Of a DNA stretch of 64,000 nucleotides, positions 2-50,886 are shown one piece after another. Every line of letters begins with the position of its first letter. Position 1 is the stretch's first letter. The notes under the pieces are model-generated. The model saw nothing but the letters and a program-made list of their open reading frames with translations, was not told where the DNA came from and ran no database searches. The position numbers were made by a program, and so were the translations under genes. The stretch is from a virus: positions 1 to 64,000 of IMG/VR virus record IMGVR_UViG_3300012953_000015; one strand, 5' to 3'.

Positions 2-1744
2 CCCCTAACTGGATCGGTTGCTACTCGAGACGGTGTTCAATATGAAATTCGCCAACATGAATACAACTCGGTAAAATTAGATAGAGACTTCATAAATAAG
101 CCAATATTACACCCAAACAACCGCGCTAAAGCTTCTTTATTTGTTGCTAGTACCGAGACGCCCGACTGGAGTCCACTAGCAGGTTTTGTACTTACCGGTT
201 CAAATATGTCAATCGACTTTACGGCAAAATATCAACAAGGAGTCTTATCTGCGGCTGATCATAGGATAGACGAAAATAATTATAAATTTAGAGTTAAACC
301 GACTGATATAAGAGGTTTTTCTAATAGTTATTCCGAAATTGCTAAAGATATTATTCGTGCAATAGACATTGCTTCCATAGAAAATCAAGAACTTGATATA
401 CACGTATATAGAGAATTTGATAGTATCGAATTTCCGATTGTACCATCTGGAGAAATATCAGGTTTAGAACTCCAAACTTTTGATTACAACGTTTCGAGTC
501 AGCTTAAGATTAAAGTAACTAAAAGACTAGACGTAAACGCTACTTCTTTTGACGCTAACTCTGCTTTTAAAGTAAGTGATGGCTTAGTTGTTATAGAACT
601 GTTTGCTAATCCCACTAGTACATCCCCAGCAAAAATTAGCTCTACTAAATATGAGTTTGGTTCTTCTTCTGGATCGCCGACTACGAATTTAATAGCTACT
701 CGAATATATGATGCATTGCAACTAGCAGTTAATAACGGCGATCTAGATATTGTGATAGTTAGCCCTGCATCTAATTCTCATATTGATTATTACTTTTTGT
801 CTCGAGACAACCATAGCACCAATTTAGAAGAAACTCAATTAATTGTAAGTGGCACCGCAGACGAGAATAATTTAGCCACCGCTAGAAATCCTGTACCTTT
901 TGAATTTTCTAATTTTCCAAATCCTGAGAAAAGACAACATATTTTTATTGACTTTAGAGAAGAAAATGATGATTTAGTCTATGTAAAACCTAACCATGAT
1001 GTAGAGATTAGAAGTTTCGGTTTAGGAGACAATGTAGAGCAATTTTCTCCTTTTAGAGATATTTCTTTCCTTTCTGGCTCAGTAACAGGAAGTTTTTCCT
1101 TCATAGATGTTTCTCCTGTTGAATACATTTCTTCTTATAATGGAGAGTTTCCTTTTAAATTAATTAATTTTCAAGCCGAACCAGGTTTTGAATATGACGG
1201 AGCGATCGAAGTTTTTCCTATAAGAGAAGAAATATTAGGAATAACTTCTGATATAAAATTTAAAGGATTTAAAGGTGCGTTGCTAGGTTCTTATGATTTT
1301 AACAAGACTAGAAATCACTCTTCTAACATAAGCTCAAAAATTAATTTTGGAGACAAGAAACAAATACCATTTTATGATGTTAATAATTCTTTAGCTAAAG
1401 AACTAGGGTTTAATGAATCAGGTGCTGAAGATATTGCAGAGTCAGAACTGATTTTTTCTAGAATTGTTTACGGAATCAATAGACCTGGTATTATTTTTAC
1501 TGATAATAGGATGATCGATCCGTTTATAGATACCGAAGAGAGAATTCTGCAATCTTTGCCTCTTTTAGGAAACAATCCAGGCGGAAAAACTGATGATTTA
1601 GTTAACGAAATTTTTAACTTAAATCCGGTAGACGATGAAAATTTAGGTGGAGAGAATTTTAGGAATGAATCTGGTATTACCTACGGAACAAAAGACCACC
1701 CGGGAACTGACTCTATTGTTTTTGGCGGTTTAAAATATGTTTGA
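2..1744 (+). CDS. Putative virion structural (tail/baseplate-region) protein, 5'-truncated by the window edge
   Basis: The frame of ORF 206..1744 stays open back to position 2 (PLTGSVATRDGVQYEIRQHEY...), so the true start lies upstream of the window. It has two 'IA..I..A...A....LDI' modules shared with neighbouring structural proteins and overlaps the next start (ATGTTTGA). Confidence 0.6.
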   Translation, partial: PLTGSVATRDGVQYEIRQHEYNSVKLDRDFINKPILHPNNRAKASLFVASTETPDWSPLAGFVLTGSNMSIDFTAKYQQGVLSAADHRIDENNYKFRVKPTDIRGFSNSYSEIAKDIIRAIDIASIENQELDIHVYREFDSIEFPIVPSGEISGLELQTFDYNVSSQLKIKVTKRLDVNATSFDANSAFKVSDGLVVIELFANPTSTSPAKISSTKYEFGSSSGSPTTNLIATRIYDALQLAVNNGDLDIVIVSPASNSHIDYYFLSRDNHSTNLEETQLIVSGTADENNLATARNPVPFEFSNFPNPEKRQHIFIDFREENDDLVYVKPNHDVEIRSFGLGDNVEQFSPFRDISFLSGSVTGSFSFIDVSPVEYISSYNGEFPFKLINFQAEPGFEYDGAIEVFPIREEILGITSDIKFKGFKGALLGSYDFNKTRNHSSNISSKINFGDKKQIPFYDVNNSLAKELGFNESGAEDIAESELIFSRIVYGINRPGIIFTDNRMIDPFIDTEERILQSLPLLGNNPGGKTDDLVNEIFNLNPVDDENLGGENFRNESGITYGTKDHPGTDSIVFGGLKYV

Positions 1745-4700
1745 TGTTAAAAAAAGAAGAATCATTCCGGATATACTTTCCGAAATAAGAACAAAAGAGG
1801 GTAGGTTAGACTTAAAAAGTGCTGTCATGGCAAACTATCGCTTTGACAATACGAAAAATACTTTGATTATTAATCGTTCGAACCACTCTTCAGGAACTTC
1901 AGATTTATATCTTTTTGATGATCTAAAAAGCAAAAGAAGTTTTTCCTTAGATAACGACAACCCTTTTACCAAGATTGGTAAAGAACAGAACTACTTTCTT
2001 CACCAGCCTGATGGTTTTAATTCTAAACTTTTATCTAGATATACCGGTAAAAGTCTATCTAACAAACACCTAAAAGGTGCTGAAGCAAAGATAGAAATAT
2101 TAAGCGGAACAAGAGCAAGCGGAGGAGGTTTACACAAAGCCTCGGTTGAAATTATTGGTTATAACCAATCTGGAAATGTTACTAAAAAATATTACTTTAT
2201 AGAAAACTCTAGTTTCGAATTTAGTGAGCCTGTTGCTAACATATCGATAAAAAAAGGAAATACTCCTAATTCTATAACGTATCTTTCAGAATCTTTCTCT
2301 CAGCGTTTGGGCTTCACAGTAAGTCTTATGAGTGGAACGCAAGGCTCTAACGATCCTAGATACAAGAACTTTTTTGTTAATCCTAATTCTCAAGTTACAG
2401 TTGCAACTGCTCGAGGTACCGGTTATGTAGGCACACATCATTCAAGCTACTCGGATGGTTATACAGTAGAAGTACCTCATCTCCCTACAGACACCGGTGC
2501 TACCCTACTAACAAGACTCTGTGGTGCTCTTACTGGAACTTGGGGTGGCCATGCATCAAATGTTACAGGATCTTTTTCTGATGCTGGTGGTGAATACTTA
2601 CTAAAGATTAAGCACAAAAAGTCAAGCTTTGAATCTAATAGCCATTCGGAAAAAAATAGGTGGGACACAGCAGTATCATCATACGGTTTAGATAATCTCT
2701 TAGTAAACCTTTCAGGCTCTTTAGCGGAAAGAAAAAGATCTCAAGATTATATTGGAACTACCCTTCAAAAAGATTCGGTAGTTTTAAGCATCTTATCTGC
2801 TTCAAACGTTTTAGATTTAGGTTACACTAGCCCGAGCTTTACAGCAGAATATGCTGGTAATTCTTGGGATTTTTATTTTGGTTATAATGATCATGACTCG
2901 AGTACCGTAGGTCCTATAATTTCTTATAATTCTGGTAGACCTAGGTTTATTCATGTCGCTCCAAACATTTATGGTTCCTTAGGTTCTACAAAATTAGAGA
3001 TGAAAACTACTCATGTTTTAAGTGCTTTTCAAGCTGCGGCAAATGCAGCGTCTAATTGGTCTGACAACTCATCCCAAGTTGTTGGAGCTGACGCTTTAGA
3101 CCTGACCGCGACGATGGCTCCGGGCGGAAAAAGCGTTATTCTCACAAAGAATAAAAAACCTGCAAACACTAAATTAACTATAACTGGTGACTTAAATCAA
3201 AATTGGGAAAACAAGACTTTATTATTGACAGGCTCTAATTTTCAAATAGTTGAATTTAATTTTACTAAATTAACTGGTTCTATTGATTTCTTGGGCAGAG
3301 CTCGCAGAGAAGCTCAATCTTCTCAGGTATTTTCAGTCGGAATTAAAAATGATAATACTGGCGTTTCTTACATTAAAGATCAGTTAATAAAAGCTATCAA
3401 CATTGCTCACCAAACTACTAATTTGAATATAACTGCATCTTCTCACACATCCAACACTCTTAAAATACAACAATTTGACACTGGAGAAAAAGGAAATACT
3501 TTAGTACAAGGATCTGTTTTTGCTAGCCCAATTGTTGCAACGAAATTAAGTAACTTTTTAAGCGGTTCTGGTGATGGAGAACTAATAATATCGGGATCAG
3601 ATATAACTGACGGAAAATTTGTGATTTCTAGTAATCAATCTAAATTTAATTTTGTTGATCAAACGGTTAGAGAAACGGGATTAGCCTTAAGGGAAGGAGA
3701 TTGGATTGGAGATTCATACTTACCAACGGGAGATTCTAGGATTGGAGGAATATCGGTCAGATACGATCTTGGCGAAAACGAGTTATATAATGTTTTTACT
3801 AATTTTTCTAAAGCTGTTAACCTAAACGAATCATCTGGTTATGTAACAGCATCAATGTCGGAATCTCAAGATAATAAGGCTAAAGTAATAGTAAATAGCG
3901 TAGTCTCTCCAGGTCGATCAATTCTAACTTTATCTCAGTCAAATCCGGGAATAGGTTCTAATACTACATTAAAAATGTCGGGATCTGTATTCTTATCCCA
4001 ACTCAGTTTAGACATTGCTATCCCAAATCTTTCTTTTACACAGTTTGAAGGAGGGATTTCCAAGCTTGGGGTAGCAACGTTAGACAACAAAAATTTAAAT
4101 CACATTGACAAAAAAACTTTTATTTTTAGAATAAAAGTTGGAACGACTCAAGGGCTTATTTTTTCTATTGCTAAACAAGATAAACCTAGATACGCTTTGT
4201 TTTCTGGTGCAGGTAGCAATGTAGATCTTATCTTTAGGGCTTACACTAGCGACCCAACTCAATATTGGCAATGTCGGATAAACACACTAGCTGGTGGGGG
4301 CACCATCAGTGAAAATCAGTGGTTAACTGTAGTTATTTCTGTAGATGAGAATACTCCAGGCTCAGGAATAGAAAATAACTACATGGCTATCTTAGATTCT
4401 ACTACAAATGGCCGTCTTCTTAATCAAAAAGGTTTTACACCAGTAAATTCTCCCTTAGGAACAGTTTCAAATTTTTCTGATACTTCTAACTACAGAATGT
4501 TTTTAGGTTTTGGAGATTCAACTTCTGCAGTCCCTTCTGACTTTTTCAATGATTCTCAACCCCAACTTGATCTAAGTGACTTTCATGATGATTTCAAGAT
4601 ATCGGAATTATCGATACTGAATATTTGTTTACCTTTAGAACTAGCAAATAAGTTTGCTGAATCTTACTACACCGGTAGGGCTAAATCGGGTTTTAGAGGT

Positions 4701-7700
4701 AAAATACCAAAAGAAGAATTAGATTTAAGCCAAAGAAAATCTTCTGCAGAAGATTCTATAGAATCAAGACCTTTTGTAGACTCAGATCAAACTTCTCCAG
4801 TTCCGGTAATTAGAGATTTAATTTACCCGAACATGCTTCCAGCTCCTGAAGTCGGTACTTTAAGCATAAAGTTTAACAGAGAGCCAACAGATGGTGAATA
4901 CTTTGTTATTAAGAAACCAGACGATTCTGAATTAGCGATAAAATTCGGCCCTCAAAACGCTTTAGATGTATCTGGAACTACAATCGTTTCTGATATTAAA
5001 GTAGCTCTTACCGGTTCAACTCATCCGGGTGGTATTCTAGTCGCTCCAGCTAACGTTGCAACTGATCACATATATGCTTGGTTTCCGCTCAATGATCAGA
5101 ATATTGTAAATCCTTATCCGGATGCATCTCGGCGGCTTAAAACCTCAAACAATAGAACTGCTGATCCAACTGGTGGAGTTCCTACCTGGGATTCCTCTAA
5201 GAATGACTTGCCTCAATCTCCAGGAGGTGCCTTTAGATCTGAGGTTAGTACTTCACGTTATTGGCTAGCGCATAATACGCACAACGTTAATGATTTTTCA
5301 TTTTTAAACAACCAATCTTTTACAATATCTTTCTGGATTAACATAGGAAATCCGAGAGATGCTAGCGAGCACAACCAACCTTATGGTGCTAACGACTACA
5401 TATACCCTATATACAAAGGAAACATTTCTCAGCTTCAAAATGTGTTTGAAAACACGTTAGTCGATTTTGAATATTTGGTCAGAATCAAGCCTAGGACGGG
5501 AGAAGTACTATTTGCTTTGTATGGAGCCGATTCTCAAGTAATCGTTGGAGGTGGACCAGCTCACACTAGCGGAGTAGTAGTACGTAGTTGGACATCAATT
5601 AATGGCGCTTCTCCTATGCAGGCTGGGTGGAATCATGTTGTAGTTACTTATGATGGCCAAAGCAGAACTTACACAAGAGAAGATAATAGCATAGGAACTC
5701 CTTTTTATGGTTACGCTCCAGACGGAGATCAAAGTAAAAGAATCGGAAAGATTTACATTAATGGCAATCAAGCTTCTAAGCATGAAACTATAACTCTTCG
5801 TCATAACACTAGCCCAAATGGAACACAGAGTTATGATAGCAATACAGATTGGCCAAATGAAGTAACTTTTCTTAATATTTCTGATAAGACAAATCATAAA
5901 CTTGCTATTGGATATGGTCCATCTTTCGCTAACCAAGGTTCTGCTGGAGACGCTAATTTTGGTTTTTATGGATGGCTATCAGATGTTGCGATATGGACCA
6001 AAGCAATTTCCCCAGCGGAAGTATTAACTCTCTATACGAAAGCAAACGCCGGATACAATAACTACTATTTAGGAGACCTATCAACATCCAGCGCTTTTAA
6101 AACTAGTCTTTCCGGAACAATTGATTATTCTGTAGATGAACGAGACAGCCTCCAGGCTTCAATACAATTCGGGGAAAATACAGTTTCTGATATAACGGGA
6201 AAAATGACTGGAGATAACACTCCTATTTTTGCAATTAACTCGCCAGGAACTGTGGTTGGTTCTGGTGGTCTAGCTGAAGGGAGCACGCTTGTACCAGTAA
6301 CTAGTGAGGTTATTCTTTCTGGAAGCGCAATGAGGTATTTTGACTTTACAACTGCTTCTCCGAAAACCGCTTTGTTTTTTGGTAAAACTTCTCATTGGCA
6401 GCCTTTATTGAATCCTGGCTCTGGTTTTGGTGCAGATCAAAACCAAGGTGAAATGACAATTATTGCTTGGGTCAATGTTGGTGAGCCTGATAGTACCACT
6501 AACCCATATCATATAGTTGATTTTTCAAAAGAGATTCAATTTGCTGTACTAGGTAACAATAAACTTTATTTGCAATTAGACATCCTAACCAACGGCGGTG
6601 GCGTTGCAGCTAAAGGATATTTTTGTCATGACATAATCAACGACAATGAGTGGTTACAAGTAGCTATTTCTTTCAAAGAAAATGATTTATATAATGCAGA
6701 TGCCCAAGTTCGATTTCCAAAGTTTTATGTCAATGGTAAAAAGTTACCAACAGTAACCGAATCACCTTCTGGCGCCATCAATGCAAATCAACAGGTTGAA
6801 CACCTTAATAACTTTGATTGTACTATTGGTAATGATATCAATTACGCTAGAAATTTCAAAGGCTCAATTGGTGATGTATATGTATTTAATCGTAGTTTAA
6901 GCCACCAACAAATCATTGATATATTCAACAACGTTAAAGAATCGTTAACAAAGCTTAAAAACGAAGAATTAGTAGAAAATTTTGTTACTTTTATTAATAA
7001 CACTAACCGGTATTCTGATAGTTTATTAATTGCTAGCAAGAATGAAACTGACCCGCATACTGCTGATTTGAAATTAGATATTGCTGGATCATCTAAATCA
7101 GGTTTTTCTTTAAACTCTACCCCGTTATCCGTAGCTAATCCGCTCTATGTTATTCTTTCTGGGAGTGGCCACCTCGAAAGTGTGTATCCAGCCCACCAGG
7201 CAGATCCTACAACACATACAATACAAATCGTATCTTCTTCTTTTAGTGATAAATTTGCTGGTTTTGCTAACGCAGATTTAGATAATTCTCCTCCTAGCAA
7301 AAGAATAATAGTTGGAGCTTTAGGTCAAAACAAAGTTAGCTCTAAGATAGCTTGTAATTTTAATAATCTAAATAATGCATATGAACTAGGAGAAATTACA
7401 AATGATGTAATAACATTGTTCCGGAATGCTAGAAATAATAACCAAGCTGCTGATATATGGGGACCTTTAGAATTACCAGAAAATATTATTGATGATGAAA
7501 TATTTAACAACTTAAACGTAAATGAAATACCTTGGCCCATAGCTGAAGTCAATCCTCCTAGGTATCCGGCAATAAGTTTTGACATCTCCGGAATAACATA
7601 TTCAGCAAGGTTTTTTAAAAGTTTCGAGGAACAACCTAAAAAGAAAAGCGATTCTAACATTTATAACATTTGTATAGATGATGTGACGAATGATGTATCG

Positions 7701-10700
7701 TTAGCGGAATCTTTAAAGAACTCTATTGACAGCTTCATTAGTAAATACCAGCTTGGTTTAAGCACAGAAATATCTGATTCTAAGATTGTTAACATTTCTG
7801 TGACAGATCCAACTATAGATACTTCAAACGTTGATTTTAAAGGATTCACTACAGCTTCTGGCTTAGGCGTGGACAATTTCGTTTTTGTAACTACTAGATT
7901 TAACCCAACGTTGAACCCAACAATCGCAGTAGATAGCGTTAGCGCTATAACTAGCGAAGACAACAATGTTATTAAACCATTTATTGATTCAGCAGATGAT
8001 AATAATCCATTTTTGCAAGAGAGAGGTTCACCTAAGAGGATTAATCAAATAAAGATAGAGATACCAATAAATCCATCTAAATCAACATCACTTGGGTACA
8101 TGACTGGATCTGGCACTTCTAATAATAATCTTGAAGGTTTTAACCATGAGCATTTCAAACCGGTAGGATATTTTAACTTTGGAAATAATACTTGGGAATC
8201 TATAACAACCGGTACTGGTCCAGGCGCCTCAGTGTCAAAAGCTTATCCTTTATCTTATACTTCTAATATCTCGTACACTGCCGGTTCTCCAGATACAGAG
8301 TCGCATTATCCAACTAGAGTTACTGGATCTATTCAGGAGTTTATTAAAGTAATGCCTTTCGCTTTCGGCCCGGGGCAAGGTTTTACTATTCAAAATAGTC
8401 TTTCTTCAGTTTCAGGCTCGACCTTAAGTAACACTTTTGACCACCCTGGTATCGGTGATCTTTATGACATAGAATTTAATGCTTACGCTAGACCTATTTC
8501 GACTTTTGGGTTTCCCTTTGATTCTAAATTTTCTCCAACCGACGATCAAAAAATAAACATGTCTGCATATTTGGAGAATGATTTCGTTTTGACCGGTTTT
8601 GAAATAGTCGTTTCTTCTTCTATAGAAGATAGTGTAACTGATGGTTTAGGTTATGATTTATCGACTGACTTCTTAGTCTCATCCGGATCTTTCGCATTTA
8701 CAACGGGATCATCATATTTGTATGGTTCTAACGTTTACTATAACCCTCGTCCTAAGTTGATCAATGAAGCTTCTGGTATGAGAAAACTAGGGCTTTCTCA
8801 CCCGGTTTATGGATTCGTAAGTGGTTCAAAAACAGATCCTGACGCTGATATGCTTTCTGAAGCTACTGGTAGTATGCTCGGTTTTTCTTTAGGTAGCCCA
8901 GGGTCTGGTAATGTGTCTGTTATAAGAGATGGTTCTAGATTTGATAGGGCCATGCCGTGGTGGAGATGCGATACTTTCTTTCTTATGAGAGAAAAACCAT
9001 TTGTTAATGAAACTATAAGCACGAATATTTTTGTAGATCAGTTAAATATGAAAATAACTGCATCGCATCCAGCTAATTCTTTGATTAACCCATACACTCA
9101 TGCTCATAGAGAAGAACACTGGTCACTTTTTAATAAAGTTCCGGATGAAGAAATTTTTGATTTTTCTAGTAACATTAATATATCGGGAGGAAAAACTCAA
9201 GAGTTAATATCATACTCTCAGGTTTCTTACTACGGTTATGTTACAAAGGAATTCCTTTCTGGCACTACTCATGCTGGTAGTACTTATCCAGCCCAAACTG
9301 AACAGCCTTTTGATTTAGAAAAACCATCAAGTCAATTCGATCAAGTTACTCTTTTTAATTTTGTTGGTTTATCTGCTGATGAGATGGCTGATTCTATAGA
9401 CTACATTACGAGTGGGTATGAACCTATAGATTATCTTGAAGGCAATAACGGCCCATCAGATTCTACTCTTAAAAAAGGCTATAGCATAGATCAACAAAAG
9501 TATGGTTCTTTCTTATACAGAGGTGGATGTCAAAAGAGCACATGGCTTGAATCAGGCTTAGGGCGAGATTTAAACATAATGATCGGGCGTGACTTTGGGA
9601 ATGAGTGGTTATCCAAAGACCAAAACACAGGCCTCGCTACGTCCGGCCGAGCTTCTCACTATAAAGCAATAGATATCAGTAAACTTTCTATTTCTTCCAT
9701 AATTTTTGTTGATACTGATTTGTACTCTACTAACAATAATTTAAGATTATCTAAATCGTTTTTCGCCGGCTATGAGTCAGAATTGGGAAATGAATCTAGA
9801 AGAATAAATAAAAATGGTAGTGCTCAGTTAATCGATGGCGCAACTGATAGAGCTGCTTTAGAAAACAATCAAAAACTCTATTCGGGTATTTTGACTTTAA
9901 GGGCACCGATAAGAGAAACACCGAATTATCAATCAAATTTTAAAGCTAGTTTGCTTCATGCAGATCAATATACGCCTAATTATGCTAGGGATAATTCTTG
10001 GCTTGTCAATATGTCGGGTTCTACCCCAAATTATATATCATTGTCAACTAACACTGGCCACAAATTTGCGAATATCCTTCCAAGCGTTTTGTATGCTAAC
10101 AACAATTCAGTTTTTAACAATGGAGGATATACTGACTCTAACCAAACTTTCTTGAGAAATTTAAAAGTCGGAACTTTTTGGACAGGAGGAAACGATCCAG
10201 ACGGTTTAGGCTCTCCTAGGAGGATAAAGCACGCTTTAGGTGGAGAACTATTTAATGCTAAAGTCTCTTATGTTGATTCTCGCATAAGCCCTGTCAATTC
10301 AGGGATAAATTATTTGACTGGAAACATATATCCGGATGCAAATGCACAAAGAAGCAAAAATCTTCTTAAGAGTCACGTTCATGAGTATAGAAAGAACTAT
10401 GACATAAAATCCAACTATATTCTAAAGAAAAATGATAACCTCATTTTAGGTTTTCAAGTTGGTCTTCCTGGATTTTCAAACTCTCACAATGGTTTAGCAA
10501 ATGTTGGTGGTGGTAATGTACCAAGTTTACTTAGGGGAGGTAGCATCCAGACACAAAGAAATCAAATTCCAACGACGAGAAAAACAAATCGTCCACCAGA
10601 TTTCTTCTACCCGCGGTGTCACCAAGCTCATTTTCACCCGTATGAAAACTCTAAGTTAGTTCTTTACGGTTACTACCTAAAAGATGAAAAACCTTTTGTC

Positions 10701-12572: not shown

Positions 12573-12575
12573 TAG

Positions 12576-19131: not shown

Positions 19132-19132
19132 T

Positions 19133-21698: not shown

Positions 21699-23264
21699 AT
21701 GGCAAATGTAAATCAAATAAGATTACAACAAATCTCTGGTTCTTTAGCAACCATAGACTCAGGCGTATCGGGTGTTAACTCAGCCGGTGCACTTCCAGCT
21801 GCTTTAGGCGAAAACACTATAGCGGATATGGAAGATATCATGACATACTTTGCACAAGCTATTGCAAATATTCATGGTAAAACAAACTTTGGTACTCAAA
21901 CACCTGGTCTAATTTCATTCGATGCTTCTGGTATCGATATTGTCTTAGACCAAGATCAATCAGGAAGAAAGATTCACCTTGACTCTGAAGGTTCTGTTGA
22001 TATCGATGCTATCACAGGACTTGACATCAACGTTGCAACAGGCGGTTCAGATGCAAGAGACCTTGCTATCTCAAGCACAGGCGGTGGTGATTCTAGCGTC
22101 CTAATCAGTTCTGCTGGTTCAGGCGCAGACGCTCTATCACTTGACGTTTCTGCTGGCTCAATGGTAGTTGCTCCATCTCTTGCAGATGGTCAGACATTGA
22201 AGCTTGGTAAGAACGGTGCTGTTGAAATGGTGTTTACACCTCATGGTACACCTGCTAACGAGAAGGTCTCACTTACAAACACTGCAGGTACAGCTGATGA
22301 TGCTATTAGCCTTGTCGCTACTGCTGGTGGTGTTAAAGTTCAGGCTGGTGATGATTCACTTCACCTTGATGCTGACGGTACCGATGCTGATGCATTGAAT
22401 ATCGATTCAGCTGGTGGTATGGACGTTGACGTTGCTGGCGTTCTTAACATGGCTGCAGGCGATGACTCTGTCATTGCTGTCACGACTGCTGCTAAGGACC
22501 TTGCTCTTACCGTTTCAGGCGGTGGTGCTCAGGTTCTCCAGTTGAACTCAGCAGGTACCGGTACTGATGCAATTGACATCAATGCTTCTGCTGGTGGTAT
22601 TGATATTGATTCAGCAGCTGAACTTAACTTGGCTTCAAGCGCTGCTGCATTCCTATCAGGTTCATCTTTCGTAGGTATTAAATCAACTTCAAGCGCAGAG
22701 ATTCATGCTACTTCAACCTTGACTATGTCTGGTACGAATGGACTAAAGATTCAGTCTTCAGGCGGAAGTATTCAGTTTGAATCGCATGACGCAGACTCTG
22801 CTATGAATGGTGGGTTTATTAGTCTTGCAACTTCGGGTGAATTTGCTGCTTTCGTTGCTAAGGACTTGTTCTCAAGTACTACAACAATTATGGGAGCAAT
22901 CAATGCGTTAGCTCAATCAGGAGAACCAACGAAGGTTGTCTACCGAGTAACTGGTAGCCATGCAGCTACCACAGACTTGTACCTAAACACTGACGGTTCA
23001 TCAATTTCCGCACTCGCTGCAGGGTCTTCCCTAGGCGCTCCGGGAACTGGTATTTCGAAAGTTTCAGGAACATCAACCTCACTAGCAGCCAATAGGGATC
23101 CTCACAAAGTTGAAGTATTCCTTAATGGTATGTTACTAATGTCAGGTTCTAGCGCTGACGTGACGAATAGCCACGCAGATTATAGAATCGCAGCTGCAAA
23201 CCGATTGCAGTTTGGATTTGCTTTAGCAGCCGGTGACGTACTTCAAGTTATGGATCGTTCTTAA
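21699..23264 (+). CDS. Probable abundant virion fibre or decoration protein (521 aa) with beta-repeat shaft
   Basis: SD AAGGA. Four G[TS]..DA[IL].[LI]...AGG repeats and a C-terminal VEVFLNG.LL.SGS...DY...FGF.L..GD unit shared with the 19133 gene. Codon usage is distinct from its neighbours, and a strong terminator follows. Confidence 0.65.
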   Translation: MANVNQIRLQQISGSLATIDSGVSGVNSAGALPAALGENTIADMEDIMTYFAQAIANIHGKTNFGTQTPGLISFDASGIDIVLDQDQSGRKIHLDSEGSVDIDAITGLDINVATGGSDARDLAISSTGGGDSSVLISSAGSGADALSLDVSAGSMVVAPSLADGQTLKLGKNGAVEMVFTPHGTPANEKVSLTNTAGTADDAISLVATAGGVKVQAGDDSLHLDADGTDADALNIDSAGGMDVDVAGVLNMAAGDDSVIAVTTAAKDLALTVSGGGAQVLQLNSAGTGTDAIDINASAGGIDIDSAAELNLASSAAAFLSGSSFVGIKSTSSAEIHATSTLTMSGTNGLKIQSSGGSIQFESHDADSAMNGGFISLATSGEFAAFVAKDLFSSTTTIMGAINALAQSGEPTKVVYRVTGSHAATTDLYLNTDGSSISALAAGSSLGAPGTGISKVSGTSTSLAANRDPHKVEVFLNGMLLMSGSSADVTNSHADYRIAAANRLQFGFALAAGDVLQVMDRS

Positions 23265-43997: not shown

Positions 43998-44011
43998 AGA
44001 GAACGATTTCA

Positions 44012-46213
44012 ATGGATGAAAATCAAAGAGAGATTATCAAAAGAAGAACTAATGATGGGAAAAGTTCTGCTCCTTCTCGAGGGGTAGTAGTTCTTAATGT
44101 TTCTCCTCCTAAGTTTAATACTTTTAAAAAAAATCCTTCCGATGAAGCTACGATCAATAATTTGACTTATAACAACATATACGTTTACAATTTTTACACT
44201 ATGAACGAAAGAAATAAATACAGTTATAAGAATAGCGAATTTGATTTTACTGAAGTAAGAGGAATAGACGGTAAAAAAGTACAAAAGAATGATAATAATA
44301 CTTTGAGAAAAGTTTCCGGTTTTATACCATCTTTCATAAGGCTTTCTTGGGACAATTCTCATTCTTGGTCGCCAGCTAGCGTTGCTAGCCATCACCAAAT
44401 TGAACAATTTAAAAAACTAGTAGGGATTAAAAATTACCCAACACATGATTCAGATATAAATGAATTTAATAGGTTCCCTATAAGAGGACCTCAACCTGAA
44501 AGAGGGGGAGTTACTTTCGAGACTCACCAGCGTGACTATGTAGCGGTTACTAATGAGTATCTAGACATGTTCTCTGATTTGACTATACTCGCTCCACCGG
44601 CTACTAACCCTTGGTTCGCAGAAGAAATTGATGCGTTTCAGTCTATTTCTAGGTTAACGTTTCTGCAAAATGAAGTTATAGGCGGGGGCAACGACCCATA
44701 TAAAAACTTTTTGAATGTCTACGGGCAAAGCGGGCAGCAATTTCTTGACCCTCATCAAAGACTTATCCCTCAAACGCAAATTTCAGAATCAATACCAACA
44801 GTACAAGATTCTGCCATGCTAGAAGATTTACAATATCCTTTCGAGAATCGTACTCCAGATATTACATTAATATTAAATTCAGAAGCCGCTGCAGAAATCT
44901 CTAGGTCATCTTTAAAAAGCTGTGGGAATATTCTTTCTACGCAATCACAGATTAGAAATCTTAGACATTTAATAGAGCATAATGTTAATCAAATAGAGAA
45001 TCAAGCAGGGTATCAGACGCCTCTTGATAAGATTTTAAGCGAATCTACGTATTATAGCGAAACTATATTAGAGCCAAGTGCTCCGAAATATATTTCTGAT
45101 TTTAGAATTGTAGGTTTCGTGATCGAAAAGAGAGAAAAATCTAAATCTCCTTCCGGCGAATTAGGAGCTCCAAATTTAAAAATTAAAGAAAAGTATCCTT
45201 TAATATTTGTTCCTTGTTCTAGAAATCCGGATGAATCTGATCCTTTTATGCCTAATACTTACTTAGACACAGCTTTGAATTACGGTTCTGTGTATTCTTA
45301 TAACATTAGAAGCGTTTTTACCTTTAGTCTAAAGGTTCAATCTGGAAACGAAACAAGGGTAAGACATTATTTAGTTAACTCTGGTTATTCTAGAACTATA
45401 GAAATAGATTGCCTAGAGACAACTCCTCCTCCACCACCTAGAGATTTTGATATATTTTTTGATTACACTCTCAAGAATCAAAGATCTCCAGGCAAGCCTA
45501 GATTAACTTGGTCATTTCCTGTAAACCCGCAGAGGGATACCGCAGGCTTTGCAATTTTTCGTAGAGGAAATATTTATGAACCTTTTAATTTAATAAAAAT
45601 TATAGATTTTAATTTCTCTAACCCTAGTAGAAGAGGAAACGATTATAAGTTTGAAATAAGAGGTTCCGACAAAAATAGCATAATTAAATTCTGTGGTCAA
45701 AATGATACCTTTACTGACTTTGTAGATGAAGGTTTTAAGAACAACCAAAATTACATGTATACTATATGTTCTATAGATGCCCATGGGCAAATATCTAATT
45801 ACGGAACTCAAATTTTGGTAAATTACGATTATAAAAGCGATACCCTTAAAAAAGAGCAAGTTTCTCCTCCTGGATCACCTTTGATTTTTCCTAATTGGTT
45901 TTTAAAAACTAAAGCTTTTCCTGACGTAGCGAGGATCAGTAATTACAGGAGAGCTAATTTAAAGTTTAGGCCAGATTATAAAGAGATTAAAGTCGGGCCT
46001 AATAATGTAAACCAAAAAATTGTAAATGGAATTGACCCCGATGATGGCGGTCATGCGGATAACGCGTATTATCTGCAAATAATAAACCCGGATAGATCTA
46101 ATGATATAGTACTAAAATATCAAATAAACGACATCTTAGAAAAAATGATATCATCTGAAGAATTACAGGAAGTAGCTGATCACCTTGGGGTTTCGTTAGA
46201 AGATTTAGGATAA
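44012..46213 (+). CDS. Virion structural protein with fibronectin type III-like domains (733 aa)
   Basis: PPPPPRDF...RLTWSFP...GFAIFRR...FVD...NYMYTICSIDAHGQIS is an FN3-like pattern, preceded by a YLDTALNYGSVYSYNIRSV unit. Confidence 0.6.
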   Translation: MDENQREIIKRRTNDGKSSAPSRGVVVLNVSPPKFNTFKKNPSDEATINNLTYNNIYVYNFYTMNERNKYSYKNSEFDFTEVRGIDGKKVQKNDNNTLRKVSGFIPSFIRLSWDNSHSWSPASVASHHQIEQFKKLVGIKNYPTHDSDINEFNRFPIRGPQPERGGVTFETHQRDYVAVTNEYLDMFSDLTILAPPATNPWFAEEIDAFQSISRLTFLQNEVIGGGNDPYKNFLNVYGQSGQQFLDPHQRLIPQTQISESIPTVQDSAMLEDLQYPFENRTPDITLILNSEAAAEISRSSLKSCGNILSTQSQIRNLRHLIEHNVNQIENQAGYQTPLDKILSESTYYSETILEPSAPKYISDFRIVGFVIEKREKSKSPSGELGAPNLKIKEKYPLIFVPCSRNPDESDPFMPNTYLDTALNYGSVYSYNIRSVFTFSLKVQSGNETRVRHYLVNSGYSRTIEIDCLETTPPPPPRDFDIFFDYTLKNQRSPGKPRLTWSFPVNPQRDTAGFAIFRRGNIYEPFNLIKIIDFNFSNPSRRGNDYKFEIRGSDKNSIIKFCGQNDTFTDFVDEGFKNNQNYMYTICSIDAHGQISNYGTQILVNYDYKSDTLKKEQVSPPGSPLIFPNWFLKTKAFPDVARISNYRRANLKFRPDYKEIKVGPNNVNQKIVNGIDPDDGGHADNAYYLQIINPDRSNDIVLKYQINDILEKMISSEELQEVADHLGVSLEDLG

Positions 46214-46265
46214 ATTTTACCGTTTTTTACCGTGGTATATAATTAGAAGTAGTTTTGGAGTAGTT

Positions 46266-46982: not shown

Positions 46983-47005
46983 TATTTTAATAAGGAGAAT
47001 TAGCG

Positions 47006-48307
47006 TTGGCTGTTTTTAAATCTTTAATCGGAAACGATATTACACAAACAAGATCAATTTTAAACCAACTAGTTGACATCGTTAGAGAAGACATATCTGG
47101 TTCAAATTCCCGTAAGAGTTATGAAGTTTTCGTCACTTCTTCTGTCGGGCCAGGAGTAACTTCTTCTCTATACCAAACAGTTTTTGATCAAGATTTTAGT
47201 TTGCAAACTGCTAACAGCTTGTTTGATATGACTTTTGGTTTAAGACCAAGTTTGAATTTTTTAACTGATGGTACAGTAGATCCAAAAGTTTTTCTTGGCG
47301 GAGCTGGTATACAAAAAAGAAGGTATAAACCAGAATCCCTCATGCTAAGGGAAAAGCAAGACATATACAGACAGTTTGCTGCAACCCTACTAGGATCTGG
47401 AGAATCAGAATTCGTTGCGCCTTTCGAATCAACTCAAGATGCAAGTAAGATTGATTACGCAGTTTTTATTTCTTTTCACAGACTCTTCGTTAGAGACGGT
47501 ATAAAGAGAGAAACTTTTGCCATGAGGCTAAAACATAGGCTAGGTACTTCTAAAGTAGGAACAAGCTTTCAAGATAATTTGTTTCAAATACAGGGTACTG
47601 AAGAGAGAATATACACTGATTTTGGTTCTACAAATTTCCAGCCTGTAAATGCTGCTGGTAATGTAGGCAATATAGTTAATGCTAATAACACGACTGAAAC
47701 TGTTGGCTTGATTTTTTATGATCATGGTACGGTTGTTTTAAACGCAGCAAAAGTTTTTAATACTACTGATGTTGGTCATGGAATGATATCTGCAATGTCA
47801 AATACTACTAGCCAAGCATCAACAGCTAATAGCGTATACGGAACTACTGGCGTTATTCCGGCTGGCAAGAAACTATTTGGCCCAGAATCAGAATCAGGGG
47901 GTCAACTGGTATTTTCTGAATCTCCTTCAGATGATACTGGAGGTAGGCTATTTCCGTATTTCTTTACTAGCGCTTCTATTGACGATATCTGTGGCCACAT
48001 TGCTTCTACTAGATTTGGAAATGATTCAGGAACAGCAATAACATTTCAGAATAAGACTGAGATAAATTCTCAACTATATTTTATCAGGGCCATGCCAGAC
48101 GAGTTTAATTATTCAACCAACCCATCTTATACTAACGCTAGCGGAAATATTCAAGTTATAAAAGACGATTCTCGCCCGTTTTCTTTTATAACTACTGTAG
48201 GGCTTTATGGAAATTCTGATGAACTACTAGCAGTTGCTAAAACGTCTAGACCTATTGAAAAAAATGATGAAAAAGATCTTACAATTAGGGTTAGGCTAGA
48301 CTTTTAA
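47006..48307 (+). CDS. Putative baseplate wedge-like structural protein (433 aa)
   Basis: TTG start with AAGGAG SD. The C-terminus EFNYSTNPSY...ITTVGLY...ELLAVAKTSRPIEK...IRVRLDF is paralogous to the C-terminus of the next gene. Confidence 0.6.
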   Translation: MAVFKSLIGNDITQTRSILNQLVDIVREDISGSNSRKSYEVFVTSSVGPGVTSSLYQTVFDQDFSLQTANSLFDMTFGLRPSLNFLTDGTVDPKVFLGGAGIQKRRYKPESLMLREKQDIYRQFAATLLGSGESEFVAPFESTQDASKIDYAVFISFHRLFVRDGIKRETFAMRLKHRLGTSKVGTSFQDNLFQIQGTEERIYTDFGSTNFQPVNAAGNVGNIVNANNTTETVGLIFYDHGTVVLNAAKVFNTTDVGHGMISAMSNTTSQASTANSVYGTTGVIPAGKKLFGPESESGGQLVFSESPSDDTGGRLFPYFFTSASIDDICGHIASTRFGNDSGTAITFQNKTEINSQLYFIRAMPDEFNYSTNPSYTNASGNIQVIKDDSRPFSFITTVGLYGNSDELLAVAKTSRPIEKNDEKDLTIRVRLDF

Positions 48308-48321
48308 ATAGGGGAATTTAA

Positions 48322-50886
48322 ATGGCACTTATTCCTTTATTTCCAAGCGATTTTTTCTTTAAATCTATAAAAGTCCACCCAACTCAGCAATTTGTTTCTT
48401 CTTCTGCTGGCGTGACTGGTGATGTTTATCTTTTTGCCGAAAGAAGTAAAGCGATTAGAGATATCTCTAATGATCTTAAAGAATATCATTTTGATTGCTT
48501 ATCTGCTATTGAGTATGATTTCTCTACTGGTTTTAGAGGCTTAGCAGACGAAATAGCAGACACTAGAAGAAATAATATAAGCGATATAGTTTCTAACTAC
48601 ATAAGTAAAGTAAGCGAATTATCCGAGAGTCTAGATTTAAGTAAAAAGTTGATAACTTATCGATTCGATATACCACATAGGTTTAATGATAACTCAATCA
48701 GAAAATCTGTTTTTATTAAAAATTTATTGCCTTATTACCAAAATCATTACGATTATCCTTTAAATTTTGGTTTTACAAATTATCATACTTTAAATTTTTT
48801 CACATCATCAGCTCGTTATCCCTCTAACGTTCCTTCAAATTCTGCTTTAGTTTATCCAACTTCTGTAACTGTAGACTCTAAACCAGCGCGATACTATCCA
48901 TCTGGATCTTTTACTTTTGAGTTTTTTATAAATCCTAGATATACTACTGATACTTCTTCTGATGAATATACACCTGGAACTATTATGCACATGCCGAACT
49001 CATATTGCATATCATTACTTTCGGGTTCAGGAAAAGATGAATTTAATCGACCAAACACTTTTAGGCTAGCTCTTCAACTAAAAGACGCGGCTCAGAAAAA
49101 ACCTAGCCAATTAGTAAACCCTCCTAATGCATTGGCTTCTGGGAGCTTAAGCGATAGAATTTATATATCTGAAGATAATCACCTTACTTTAAACAATTGG
49201 AGTCACTGTGCTATTAGGTGGGGAGGTGAGTCGTTTAATAATTCTACTGGAAGTTTTTTCATAAATGGCAATAATGCTGGAGATATTGTAATTAGCGATT
49301 TAAACGCTTTGCATGCAAACTTTTCAAATTTAAATGATATTCCTGGTGGTTTAGTTGTTGGTAATTGGTATGAATCTTCTAACAGTACTTATAATCATAC
49401 AGGCGGTAGCTTAAGCTCAGCCGGTAGAGCGCAAAGAATTAATTTCATGTTTGATAAGTCCGCTAGCGAAAAATATGGTACTGAATCAATACTTAGCGGA
49501 AGTTCTGATGATACTGTTGAACATAATTTCTCTTTTCCTCTAAACGCGGAACTACAAGAATTGAAGATTTTTTCTAGATGCTTGAATAATTTTGAACTAA
49601 ATTCTTCTAGAAATAATGGATATTACAATTTTGACGATGATAGTTTTCTTTTTTATGTTCCTCCTTATTTTGTTCCATCAAGTTCTAACAGGAACATGTT
49701 AAAGACCGTTACACAAACTATAATATCTAGTAGCCACACCCCTTTTAATACTGATCTTTCTTTCGGGCAAGGAGCTAGATCAATAAACTTAGAAAATTTT
49801 GTTTTAAATTTAGTAAATGGAAGTCAACCAAGGTGTTTCAATTTAGAAGAATCTGTTTCTCCTGCCGGTGGCGATCCAGAAGACTTTGATGCGACTGATT
49901 TTGACTTCATGCCGGCAACTGATGCAATTTACCGCTTGCCTCAAAACAGGAAAAGAAATTTAACTATCCTCCCAAGTGATTTGGGTACTTTAAACCCAAG
50001 TTTTTCTTTTTTAGATAATCAAGTTAGGGAAATTACTTCTGGAAGTTCCGACGCTTTTTTCACCAATGATGCAGGTTTTAAGTTTGATGGTAATGTTAAT
50101 CTTCTGAATATGGTTTCTATAGACGAGACTCACGAAGAATTATCTTTTCTGGAAGATGAAGATAGAAACCCTGATAATATTGCTAATGCTTTATTACCCG
50201 ATCCGGATGTTGCTGTCTTTTTTACCAGCGAAGTTGACGAAAATGGGATGAATATTCCAACTGGAATAACGCGAAACTATAGTGATGTTTATGGAGACCA
50301 ATCTAATCGTATAGATTTAACGATATTGCACAGAACAAAAGATACTAATTCTAATGAAATTACTTTTTTTGATATATCTAACATGTTTTATGGTGATCTT
50401 ATAAAACCATCTTCTTTTAAAATACACGATCCAGAAGTCAGTGGATCTGCTGGAAAAATCAAACTAACATTCAAAGATAATGGTAATGGAAGTCTTTATC
50501 GCTGTGATTCAACAGGCAGTCACCCAACATGGTCTAGCGTAGGTAAAATACTTTACGAAGAGGGCTTAGTATCTATTTTAGATCCAACTATTCCTCCCTA
50601 TGGCAAAAAGTCATTTGATGTAAGCTTTTCAGGGGATAGAAACATTCACATTCTAGAAATGAGAGTACCTATATCTGCAGAAGAAGCTTTAAGCTCTTCT
50701 AATCCAACTTTTTCTAGATTGAAACCAACAGATTTGCCAAGTGATGAAGGCCTTTCATGCAATATGATTACTAACATGAATATTCACGATGAAAATTTAA
50801 ATGTTATTGGTAAAATTAATTTGTCTAGACCGATCGTAAGAAAAGAAAACGATAAGTACGTATTTAAGTTTAAGATTGATTATTAA
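48322..50886 (+). CDS. Putative baseplate structural protein with a LamG-like domain (854 aa), paralogue of 47006
   Basis: SFTFEFFINP...NWSHCAIRW...FFING...ELQELKIFSRCL is LamG-like. The C-terminus SSNPTF...ITNMNIHDENLNVIGKINLSRPIVRK...FKFKIDY matches that of 47006. Confidence 0.6.
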   Translation: MALIPLFPSDFFFKSIKVHPTQQFVSSSAGVTGDVYLFAERSKAIRDISNDLKEYHFDCLSAIEYDFSTGFRGLADEIADTRRNNISDIVSNYISKVSELSESLDLSKKLITYRFDIPHRFNDNSIRKSVFIKNLLPYYQNHYDYPLNFGFTNYHTLNFFTSSARYPSNVPSNSALVYPTSVTVDSKPARYYPSGSFTFEFFINPRYTTDTSSDEYTPGTIMHMPNSYCISLLSGSGKDEFNRPNTFRLALQLKDAAQKKPSQLVNPPNALASGSLSDRIYISEDNHLTLNNWSHCAIRWGGESFNNSTGSFFINGNNAGDIVISDLNALHANFSNLNDIPGGLVVGNWYESSNSTYNHTGGSLSSAGRAQRINFMFDKSASEKYGTESILSGSSDDTVEHNFSFPLNAELQELKIFSRCLNNFELNSSRNNGYYNFDDDSFLFYVPPYFVPSSSNRNMLKTVTQTIISSSHTPFNTDLSFGQGARSINLENFVLNLVNGSQPRCFNLEESVSPAGGDPEDFDATDFDFMPATDAIYRLPQNRKRNLTILPSDLGTLNPSFSFLDNQVREITSGSSDAFFTNDAGFKFDGNVNLLNMVSIDETHEELSFLEDEDRNPDNIANALLPDPDVAVFFTSEVDENGMNIPTGITRNYSDVYGDQSNRIDLTILHRTKDTNSNEITFFDISNMFYGDLIKPSSFKIHDPEVSGSAGKIKLTFKDNGNGSLYRCDSTGSHPTWSSVGKILYEEGLVSILDPTIPPYGKKSFDVSFSGDRNIHILEMRVPISAEEALSSSNPTFSRLKPTDLPSDEGLSCNMITNMNIHDENLNVIGKINLSRPIVRKENDKYVFKFKIDY

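What the first reader, a model, noticed from the sequence alone, without database searches (positions are those of the whole stretch)
2..50886. A hydrophobic-[S/T]-G-S motif marks a subset of structural proteins: candidate virion modification sequon
Seen, with approximate hand counts of [S/T]GS: ~5 in the first ORF, ~22 in the 3611-aa protein, ~10 in the 2169-aa, ~9 in the 709-aa, 4 in the 521-aa, 3 in the 1281-aa and ~8 in the 854-aa protein. The motif is mostly preceded by L/V/I/M (LSGS, VTGS, LTGS, MSGS), with variants SGT, TAS and SSS. In contrast I find ~1 in the 4423-aa protein and none in the 989-aa, 733-aa or SbcCD proteins. The motif occurs in unrelated folds (LamG loops, fibre shafts, beta-sandwich ends), so it is not simply a domain repeat. 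Inference: it may be a recognition sequon for a post-translational modification, such as Ser/Thr glycosylation of surface-exposed virion proteins. That would be a virion-wide decoration system and would also label which proteins face outward.
Basis: partly seen in the sequence, partly recalled or inferred. Interest (0 to 1): 0.8.

Follow-up and report, generated by a model that had tools for sequence, protein, structure and literature searches.

The report
Ser/Thr-Gly-Ser tag on phage tail proteins
The tail fibre, baseplate and sheath proteins of this uncultured marine T4-like phage and its whole clade carry the short motif hydrophobic-Ser/Thr-Gly-Ser about ten times more often than chance; it sits at chain turns and may be where phage-made sugars attach, but no chemistry shows this yet.

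Summary
[LVIM]-[ST]-G-S is the most enriched tetrapeptide class in eight tail proteins: 49 sites against about 5-6.5 expected, even after 10-residue local shuffles. Codon choice is varied, so the signal is at the protein level. Recognisable repeat modules explain only 13 of 48 sites.

The motif is sharply specific: hydrophobic, then T/S, then G (less often S or A), then S. Asp and Asn are not enriched. It is absent from T4 and from a T4-like cyanophage. It is present across a large marine clade: 120 sheath homologs (3.2 against 0.23), 77 distant fibre homologs (236 against 34), and the cultured Flavobacterium phage immuto and Microcystis phage Mel-JY01.

In a confident sheath model, three of six sites are helix N-caps with a capping box.

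This contig's own sugar island is a strain-specific insertion. However, in four related contigs, two of them near-complete genomes, motif-rich fibre proteins run directly into a same-strand operon of several glycosyltransferases with no exporter.

Verdict: a real, conserved turn motif. I put the sugar-attachment tag reading at about 0.4 and a purely structural reading at about 0.4. Other agents in this scan have noted the same motif on about 48 other genomes.

The parts
2..1744 (+). 5'-truncated tail protein (580 aa in the window). It has 4 h[ST]GS sites, whose first bases are at 5, 191, 1070 and 1082.
   Evidence: 4 sites against 0.13 expected.
1737..12572 (+). 3611-aa giant tail protein with a LamG domain (residues 1570-1726); the main carrier. 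Its 18 h[ST]GS sites start at 2562, 2709, 3225, 3270, 3558, 3588, 3975, 5007, 6315, 7155, 8100, 8319, 8409, 8817, 10011, 10797, 11115 and 11325.
   Evidence: 18 against 1.3 expected. 15 of 21 sites are kept as motif in the 55%-identical ortholog L002. The full-length ortholog P0002 has 16 against 1.24.
12622..19131 (+). 2169-aa fibre protein with three copies of a roughly 60-aa shaft module (12787-12921, 14599-14787, 15340-15525). Each module carries 2-3 motif sites at spacings of 15 and 23 residues.
   Evidence: The module is 60% identical over 115 aa to the 2356-aa protein that sits beside the transferase operon in G007.
19133..21262 (+). 709-aa fibre protein with one shaft module (19802-19990) and two 'VF[LI]NG..[LM].SGS..DY' domains (20711-20788, 21134-21208). 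6 h[ST]GS sites.
   Evidence: 6 against 0.5 expected. The 709-aa ortholog in L005 has 6 against 0.49.
21699..23264 (+). 521-aa fibre-like protein with 4 sites, including a 'VFLNG..LMSGS' domain at 23112-23189.
   Evidence: 4 against 0.4 expected.
23903..27748 (+). 1281-aa tail or baseplate protein with 3 sites. Two are conserved in 31%-identical orthologs, which carry 5-6 sites of their own at other positions.
   Evidence: G001 5 against 0.21, G004 6 against 0.21.
47006..48307 (+). 433-aa clade-core tail protein. It has one site (first base 47093), and each ortholog examined also has exactly one.
48322..50886 (+). 854-aa LamG-like protein with 8 [ST]GS sites, of which 3 follow a hydrophobic residue.
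   Evidence: orthologs have 2-3 sites against 0.2-0.4 expected.
27757..46213 (+). Motif-free contrast set: the 989-aa, 4423-aa and 733-aa proteins. They have 0 h[ST]GS sites here and 0 in all orthologs.

Best explanation
Hydrophobic-[S/T]-[G, less often S or A]-S is a short, structurally defined chain-turn element. A buried hydrophobic residue ends one element, the Gly makes the kink, and the final Ser caps the next element. The tail-exterior proteins of this phage clade (fibres, spikes, outer baseplate, sheath middle domain) have accumulated and conserved it well beyond structural need. The most likely reason is that it is the acceptor tag read by soluble, phage-encoded glycosyltransferases in the infected cell's cytoplasm. 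On this reading the position-2 Ser/Thr is the probable acceptor, and the small residue and the Ser that follow are recognition elements. SHOWN: the enrichment; its action at the protein level; the specificity profile; conservation and turnover of sites; the secondary-structure context in the sheath; restriction to one set of protein families across the clade; and the position of transferase operons next to motif-rich genes in relatives. INFERRED: that any sugar is attached, which residue carries it, and which enzyme does it. This contig, estimated 52% complete, does not contain the conserved large transferase seen in relatives. It has only its own, different GT2 pair inside a strain-specific sugar island.
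For: Specificity measured in 77 independent distant homologs (104,181 residues): position 1 V 7.7x, M 8.4x, I 6.9x, L 5.9x, F 5.8x; position 2 T 8.3x, S 5.9x, with D 0.9 and N 1.4; position 3 G 6.9x, S 3.1x, A 2.7x; position 4 S 6.9x, T 1.9x, with D 0.7 and N 1.0. Ordinary turns and helix N-caps accept D/N about as well as S/T (established knowledge of capping statistics), so hydroxyl-only usage points to recognition. The bias is lineage-specific: T4 baseplate and fibre proteins have 1 site against 2.0 expected and cyanophage Sf-FS3 has 15 against 13.6. By contrast this genome has 55 against 10.3, G006 88 against 17.3, G007 61 against 17.4, immuto 51 against 10.1 and Mel-JY01 36 against 11.0. 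The same protein families are carriers or non-carriers in every genome examined. Density is maintained through turnover: L003 keeps 3 of 11 aligned window sites yet has 8 against 0.7 expected, and the 1281-aa family gains 3-4 sites at new columns. Genomic context: in G006, G007, G009 and G010, motif-rich large proteins are followed on the same strand by a conserved 631-649-aa GT2 (54% identity between G006 and G007) and then further transferases. The G007 operon holds GT2, GT2, GT11, GT6, GT4, HtrL_YibB, an NTP-transferase-HAD fusion and an epimerase, with no exporter. G007's 2356-aa carrier shares this window's fibre module. Immuto and Mel-JY01 share a GT2 pair. The two motif-poor phages with complete records show no GT2 hit (for Sf-FS3; for T4 this is from general knowledge and was not tested here).
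Against: No chemistry exists. In the only confident model, three of six sheath sites are plain helix N-caps with S-x-x-D capping boxes. All six lie in conserved gp18-like middle or core domains, and none in the variable outer insertion. The four sheath columns are nearly invariant (T100/S20, G120, S109), as structural residues would be. D/E is enriched at S+3 (24% against 10.8%, p=0.005), which is a structural signature. The capsid has no sites, unlike the known mycobacteriophage case. The large GT is not found in the held parts of G000-G005. This contig's own GT2 genes are not orthologous to those of relatives and lie in an insertion that is absent from G001. Similarity between the GTs of the G006/G007 type and the immuto/Mel-JY01 type is weak (E 1e-4 to 1e-6). 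In immuto and Mel-JY01 the GT pair is not adjacent to the carrier genes. All genomes with both traits belong to one clade, so the co-occurrence may reflect a single ancestral event. Variable sugar islands also often lie near fibre genes for unrelated reasons.
Confidence: 0.42

Rival explanations
1. The motif is purely structural. It is a lineage-typical kink or cap: a buried hydrophobic residue, a hydroxyl residue, a left-handed Gly, then Ser as the N-cap. It serves as the corner of short beta repeats in trimeric fibre shafts and as a helix N-cap in the sheath. Purifying selection keeps it, and deep duplication of small fibre units may have spread it. The preference for S/T-Gly over N/D-Gly could reflect selection against deamidation-prone Asn-Gly and Asp-Gly in long-lived extracellular particles. 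Nothing is attached.
For: Sheath model (pLDDT 78-95 at the sites): LTGS843, ITGS865 and ITGS877 each directly precede a helix, and two of them are followed by S-x-x-D. The family consensus keeps S-G-A-D and S-A-x-E. D/E is enriched at S+3 only. Gly is invariant in 120 of 120 sequences at the best column. 15 of 21 sites are kept at 55% identity, with Ser at the sites 0.86-0.90 conserved against 0.52 background. T4 gp5C has 13 h-x-G-[N/D/S/T] corners at a strict 8-residue period in a solved triple beta-helix, which is the same architecture. Tandem forms such as h-SGS-h-SGS-h, and preferred spacings of 4, 6, 15-16 and 23 residues, occur in fibre modules. N-G is mildly depleted here (0.84) while S-G is at 1.67, against 1.09 and 1.05 in T4. 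No transferase is conserved in the clade core within the held 143 kb.
Against: D and N are not enriched at position 2 or position 4 across 232 independent sites. A cap or turn would accept them, and deamidation avoidance explains only position 2. The motif is absent from T4 and cyanophage fibres, which are built on the same physical principles, and from other beta-rich proteins of the same virion. Most sites are isolated: 189 of 221 neighbouring pairs are more than 30 residues apart, and their flanks are unrelated. New sites arise at rates far above chance in fast-evolving orthologs. This reading leaves the position of transferase operons beside carrier genes unexplained.
Confidence: 0.38
2. 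The motif is read by something other than a glycosyltransferase, for example a fibre or tail assembly chaperone, a decoration protein, or a kinase or other hydroxyl-modifying enzyme.
For: The same specificity, restriction and turnover arguments apply as for the sequon reading. Ser at a helix N-terminus is a classical phospho-acceptor position (general knowledge).
Against: No candidate reader is conserved across G000, immuto and Mel-JY01 in the clade-core gene list. No precedent for such a tag is known to me.
Confidence: 0.08
3. The signal is an artefact of composition, low-complexity Ser/Gly/Thr patches, or one repeated domain.
For: The carriers are rich in S, G and T. 13 of 48 sites lie in four recognisable repeat-module clusters. 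For plain [ST]GS in the 2169-aa protein the excess is not significant (10 against 8.5).
Against: Block shuffles down to 10 residues give 6.5 +/- 2.5 against 49 observed. About 39 independent sites remain after collapsing the modules, and the flanks of the singleton sites score like random windows. The order of residues matters: h-S-G-S 10.8x against h-G-G-S and h-S-G-G at about 1-2x.
Confidence: 0.01

Closest known systems
Mycobacteriophage virion O-glycosylation by phage-encoded glycosyltransferases (Freeman et al. 2023, Cell Host Microbe, PMC10527164; known to me through its summary in PMC12619734)
   Same: Phage-encoded, exporter-less glycosyltransferases acting in the cytoplasm on the phage's own structural proteins. 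This is the only established precedent for glycosylated tailed-phage virions.
   Different: In that system the glycans sit on C-terminal stretches of the capsid and tail-tube subunits. Here the candidate tag is an internal four-residue motif at chain turns, the capsid and tube have none, the carriers are fibres, spikes, outer baseplate and sheath, and nothing has been shown chemically.
Bacterial autotransporter heptosyltransferases (TibC/TibA, Aah/AIDA-I), which recognise a short strand-loop-strand structural motif (recalled from the literature, not read here)
   Same: A cytoplasmic transferase modifies Ser residues at turns between beta strands of a repetitive beta-solenoid substrate. Recognition depends on local structure as well as sequence.
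   Different: Those enzymes belong to the GT9 family. No PF01075 match exists in this contig, and the transferases beside the carrier genes in relatives are GT2, GT11, GT6 and GT4.
T4 gp5 C-terminal triple beta-helix corner, V-x-G-[N/D] octapeptide repeat
   Same: A hydrophobic residue, a polar residue, a kink Gly, then a small polar residue. I verified 13 such corners in the T4 gp5 sequence.
   Different: T4 accepts any polar residue at position 2 and prefers N/D at position 4, with a strict 8-residue period. Here positions 2 and 4 are hydroxyl-only and most sites are isolated.
Helix N-cap with capping box (S/T/D at the N-cap, D/E at N3; established protein-structure knowledge)
   Same: Three sheath sites place the final Ser immediately before a helix, and in two of them D follows three residues later. 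D/E at S+3 is enriched overall.
   Different: Classical N-caps use D and N about as often as S and T, but here D is at 0.7x and N at 1.0x. Capping also does not require the preceding h-[ST]-G.

Membership tests
Phage virion glycosylation system (mycobacteriophage type) | Phage-encoded soluble glycosyltransferases without flippase, polymerase or exporter | tested here: met
   This contig: GT2 at genome 114339-115184 (1.4e-10) and a weak GT2 at 120839-121747, together with sugar-nucleotide enzymes and a sulfotransferase. Relatives: multi-transferase operons. Immuto and Mel-JY01: a shared GT2 pair.
Phage virion glycosylation system (mycobacteriophage type) | Glycan demonstrated on virion proteins by mass spectrometry or glycostain | not testable with these tools
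   This needs purified virions. Cultured candidates are immuto (MW353176) and Mel-JY01 (PP395634).
Phage virion glycosylation system (mycobacteriophage type) | Acceptors on C-terminal tails of the capsid and tail-tube subunits | tested here: not met
   The capsid protein (gp23-like, 657 aa) has 0 sites here and 0 in all but one ortholog (the G005 ortholog has a single site). The tube ORF does not appear among the carriers in the genome-wide scan. Sites in the carrier proteins are internal.
BAHT-type protein heptosylation (TibC/Aah) | GT9-family heptosyltransferase (PF01075) | tested here: not met
   No PF01075 match in the 143-kb contig at E<=0.1. Caveat: the contig is estimated to be 52% complete.
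BAHT-type protein heptosylation (TibC/Aah) | Acceptor Ser in a strand-loop-strand motif of a repetitive beta structure | tested here: inconclusive
   Fibre modules show h-x-h-[ST]GS-h-x-h patterns, but the fibre-region fold failed (pLDDT 45).
Helix N-cap / capping box | Cap residue immediately before the first helical residue, with D/E at N3 | tested here: met
   Sheath sites 843, 865 and 877 each directly precede a helix, and 843 and 877 have D at N3. D/E at S+3 is 24% against 10.8% background. This holds for only a subset of sites.
Helix N-cap / capping box | S, T, D and N interchangeable at the cap position | tested here: not met
   Position 4: S 6.9x, T 1.9x, D 0.7x, N 1.0x over 77 proteins.
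gp5-type triple beta-helix corner | h-x-G-polar recurring at a fixed 8-residue period | tested here: not met
   The residue pattern matches, but spacings are irregular. Preferred spacings are 4, 6, 9, 15-16 and 23 residues, and most sites are more than 30 residues apart. T4 gp5C shows the strict period.
Flagellin-type O-GlcNAc transferase (GmaR) | Significant sequence similarity of the candidate initiating transferase | tested here: inconclusive
   GmaR is the best PDB sequence hit of the 631-aa GT2 of G007, but only at E=0.14 over 85 residues.

The most novel reading that the evidence does not exclude
Hydrophobic-[S/T]-[G/A/S]-S is the sequon of a widespread, phage-encoded cytoplasmic O-glycosylation system that coats the fibres, spikes, outer baseplate and sheath of a large clade of aquatic T4-related phages with strain-variable glycans. 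The variable sugar islands, including this contig's sulfotransferase-bearing one, would set the glycan type. The motif would then predict the glycosylated surface from sequence alone.
Probability: 0.4. Interest if true: 0.85.

Novelty: new variant of a known kind. Interest (0 to 1): 0.62.

Why it matters
If the motif is a sugar-attachment tag, glycosylated virions would be a common feature of abundant ocean and freshwater phages and not only a mycobacteriophage curiosity. The modified surface could then be read directly from sequence. The hypervariable sugar islands beside fibre genes would acquire a function: strain-specific coats that could affect adsorption, particle stability, grazing or recognition. 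If the motif is purely structural, it is still a sharply defined, lineage-specific building block of fibre and sheath architecture, seen in over a hundred sheath homologs and dozens of fibre homologs examined here (the sheath family has more than 2,600 members). It would be useful for annotating orphan giant tail proteins and for modelling fibre folds that have no solved template. The question can be settled by a simple mass-spectrometry experiment on a cultured phage.

Tried and rejected
**DNA-level motif.** Rejected: codons at the sites are heterogeneous and follow background usage.

**Composition, local low complexity, or one hidden repeat domain.** Rejected.

**Generic beta-turn bias.** Rejected: N-G and D-G variants are not enriched.

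**Generic property of myovirus fibres.** Rejected: T4 and cyanophage Sf-FS3 show no excess, and the same scan recovered T4's His-x-His motif.

**Prohead-protease cleavage site.** Considered and dropped. The protease is of the T4 gp21 type, and the carriers are tail proteins.

**This contig's sugar island as the motif's partner.** Rejected. The island is an insertion between genes that are adjacent in G001, and none of its transferase genes has a homolog in the eight other genomes compared; only weak DegT-, sulfotransferase- and SDR-like matches occur.

**My own interim conclusion that relatives lack glycosyltransferases.** Withdrawn. Those contigs are 31-69% complete, and the two near-complete genomes do carry them.

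**Searches that returned nothing useful:**
- PHROGs on six carrier proteins
- PDB sequence searches with the 709-aa, 3611-aa and 2169-aa proteins and the immuto spike
- viral-contig search with the 854-aa protein
- full-length and fragment searches for the 3611-aa protein in the large protein database
- fibre module against cultured phages
- literature search for the repeat

**Second structure prediction.** The model of 3611-aa residues 2100-3299, from 27 sequences, had mean pLDDT 45 and was not used.

**Model coordinates.** They are not exposed, so solvent exposure of the sites could not be computed.

Full report
**What the window is.** The window is the first 64 kb of a single 143-kb contig, estimated 52% complete. 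It comes from an uncultured marine myovirus distantly related to T4. The evidence is a gp20-type portal, an S77 prohead protease and a T4-type large terminase, a gp23-type capsid, two tail sheath paralogs and a gp19 tube further along. The first 51 kb encode giant tail proteins. Their only Pfam hits are LamG, and they have no PHROG or PDB relatives.

- Every hand count of [ST]GS is exact.
- With the preceding L/V/I/M the excess is 8- to 14-fold. An unbiased scan puts LSGS, LTGS, VSGS and MSGS at ranks 1-4 of all tetrapeptides in the carrier proteins.
- Codons are varied, so selection acts on the protein.
- Shuffling within 10-residue blocks still gives only 6.5 +/- 2.5 against 49 observed.
- Thirteen of 48 sites belong to four recognisable repeat modules. 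The other 35 have flanks no more alike than random windows, leaving about 39 independent sites against about 4.8 expected.
- A ninth carrier lies outside the window: the 1302-aa tail sheath, with 6 sites against 0.34.

**How specific is the motif?** I measured this on 77 distant homologs that share only C-terminal domains with the 3611-aa protein. They hold 236 sites against 34.2 expected. The profile is:
- Position 1: V, M, I, L or F at about 6-8x.
- Position 2: T 8.3x and S 5.9x, with D 0.9 and N 1.4.
- Position 3: G 6.9x, S 3.1x, A 2.7x.
- Position 4: S 6.9x and T 1.9x, with D 0.7 and N 1.0.

This is not a generic turn preference.

**How widely is it distributed?**
- It is absent from T4 gp5-12, wac and gp34-37 (1 against 2.0). 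The same scan found T4's known His-x-His motif, so the method works.
- It is absent from the T4-like cyanophage Sf-FS3 (15 against 13.6).
- It is present in all relatives found through the portal and fibre proteins.
- It is present in 120 sheath homologs (mean 3.16 against 0.23).
- It is present in two cultured phages: Flavobacterium phage vB_FspM_immuto (51 against 10.1) and Microcystis phage Mel-JY01 (36 against 11.0). There the carriers are again tail fibre and spike proteins.
- The split into carrier and non-carrier families is the same in every genome. Carriers are sheath-1, the fibre-module family, and the 1281-, 854-, 433- and 3611-aa families. The 989-, 4423- and 733-aa proteins, capsid, portal, SbcCD and the 1514-, 1098- and 1023-aa proteins have none, apart from two isolated single sites in orthologs.

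**How do the sites evolve?** At 55% identity, 15 of 21 sites in the 3611-aa protein remain motif, with in-class substitutions such as VTGS to LSGS. Ser at the sites is 0.86-0.90 conserved against 0.52 background. At 29-42% identity, sites are lost and new ones appear elsewhere while density stays high: L003 has 8 against 0.7, of which 3 are shared. The 1281-aa family has two shared sites plus 3-4 lineage-specific ones. In the sheath the excess comes from four nearly invariant columns. The best is T100/S20, G120, S109.

**What is the structural context?** The sheath model of residues 103-1302, built from 120 sequences, is confident (mean pLDDT 80, and 78-95 at the sites). Its best structural match is T4 gp18. 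Three of the six sites (843, 865, 877) end directly at the start of a helix; 843 and 877 have D three residues after the Ser, a capping box. Two sites are in coil, and one is in the first turn of a short helix. Five sites lie in the part that aligns with gp18 domains I-III and one lies in the universal sheath core. None is in the variable, low-confidence insertion. D/E is enriched at S+3 overall and at no other nearby offset. In fibre modules the motif occurs in tandem (h-SGS-h-SGS-h), with preferred spacings of 4, 6, 15-16 and 23 residues. T4 gp5C uses an analogous V-x-G-[N/D] corner at a strict 8-residue period. The second fold, covering 3611-aa residues 2100-3299, failed with pLDDT 45.

**Are there candidate enzymes?** This contig has a sugar island at 109-122 kb. 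It holds NUDIX, an adenylating-enzyme-like protein, a PRTase, a DegT aminotransferase, HAD, a UDP-glucose/GDP-mannose dehydrogenase, GT2, a sulfotransferase, a cupin, a GMD-like SDR, a PfkB kinase and a weak second GT2. A separate cluster holds an AGT-like protein, a thymidylate-synthase-like protein and a methylase-like protein. The island is an insertion between genes that are adjacent in G001, and its transferases have no homologs in any relative. The motif therefore does not depend on it.

I first concluded that relatives lack transferases. That was wrong, because those contigs are 31-69% complete. A lead from earlier notes of this scan prompted a retest. The two near-complete relatives, G006 (92%) and G007 (100%), both carry GT2 clusters, as do G009 and G010. 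In all four, motif-rich large proteins are followed on the same strand by a conserved 631-649-aa GT2 and further transferases. The G007 operon reads GT2 (with an unassigned 330-aa N-terminal domain), GT2, GT11, GT6, GT4, HtrL_YibB, an NTP-transferase-HAD fusion and an epimerase, without any exporter. G007's 2356-aa carrier shares this window's fibre module at 60% identity over 115 aa. Immuto and Mel-JY01 share a GT2 pair inside sugar clusters, but not next to the carrier genes. The two pairs are only weakly alike. The large GT is not in the held parts of G000-G005. By synteny with G006 it could lie just upstream of window position 1; this is an inference. Its best PDB hit, the flagellin O-GlcNAc transferase GmaR, is not significant (E=0.14). 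No transferase is in the clade-core gene set within the 143 kb.

**How I weigh the two readings.** Four things favour an enzyme-read tag: the hydroxyl-only specificity, the restriction to one lineage and one set of proteins, the maintenance of density through site turnover, and the transferase operons beside carrier genes. Four things favour a purely structural element: the N-cap geometry, the invariant Gly, the near-invariant sheath columns in conserved domains, and the absence of the motif from the capsid. All the co-occurrence evidence comes from one clade, so it amounts to few independent events. I put the sequon reading at about 0.42, structure-only at about 0.38, another kind of reader at about 0.08, and artefact at about 0.01. 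The two leading readings can both be true, because a structurally defined turn may be exactly what a transferase recognises.

**Relation to known work and to this scan.** The nearest established precedent is mycobacteriophage virion glycosylation (Freeman et al. 2023, cited through PMC12619734). It differs in both acceptor location and targets. The held literature has no description of this motif or of the shaft repeat. Other agents of this scan have reported the same [S/T]-G-S excess on about 48 other genomes, mostly reading it as a glycosylation tag, with one dissent. I treated these as leads. I confirmed the transferase adjacency for this clade only, and I could not test their claims about unrelated lineages.

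Noticed in passing
genome 74847-78755 and 78781-83247 (L011:10847-14755 and 14781-19247): Two tandem tail-sheath paralogs (1302 and 1488 aa, both with a Phage_sheath_1C domain) are conserved as a pair across the clade. Only the first is motif-rich (6 sites against 1).
   Followed up: partly
genome 108305-119094 (L013:4305-15094): The nucleotide-sugar island, which includes a Sulfotransfer_2 enzyme, a UDP-Glc/GDP-Man dehydrogenase and a GT2, is an insertion. Its flanking genes (orthologs of 107968 and 119155) are directly adjacent in relative G001 (113603 and 113995).
   Followed up: yes
L194:522-10016 (G007 140522-150016, minus strand): A complete relative carries GT11 (fucosyltransferase family) and GT6 (the family of A/B blood-group transferases) side by side with GT2, GT4 and HtrL_YibB genes, directly after its fibre genes. 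This enzyme set could build a histo-blood-group-like oligosaccharide.
   Followed up: partly
L001 / G004 (contig of 90,910 bases): Its portal is 79% identical to the window's, but the orthologous giant tail protein (5220 aa) is only about 26% identical and shows no motif excess (4 against 2.0). This points to strong mosaicism of the fibre region within otherwise close relatives.
   Followed up: partly
window 30726-43997: A 4423-aa orphan protein has no Pfam hit and no motif sites. Its orthologs are much shorter (2737-2752 aa) and only 21-22% identical.
   Followed up: no
window 52412-55561: A single 1049-aa protein combines an SbcD-type Metallophos nuclease domain (residues 4-191) with an SbcC/Rad50 Walker B region (954-1009). 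It is a fused SbcCD, conserved at 41-71% identity in relatives.
   Followed up: no
genome 65195-67168 (L011:1195-3168): The gp23-type major capsid protein is 657 aa. The best Pfam Gp23 stretch covers only residues 354-648 (two stretches matched in all), which may mean a large N-terminal extension or insertion.
   Followed up: no
protein P0090 (sheath homolog): A 65%-identical sheath homolog is deposited under a 'Euryarchaeota archaeon' metagenome-assembled genome. This is probably a binning artefact, but it is the only host-related label seen for the clade besides Flavobacterium and Microcystis.
   Followed up: no
immuto 97614-100775 (L170:12615-15776) and Mel-JY01 3065-4591: The cultured relatives' fibre proteins contain dense shaft repeats of the form h-[ST]GS-h-x-G-D-G-S-x-L-[ST]-G and (S/T)-A-S-Y runs. 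Neither has a solved structural template.
   Followed up: partly
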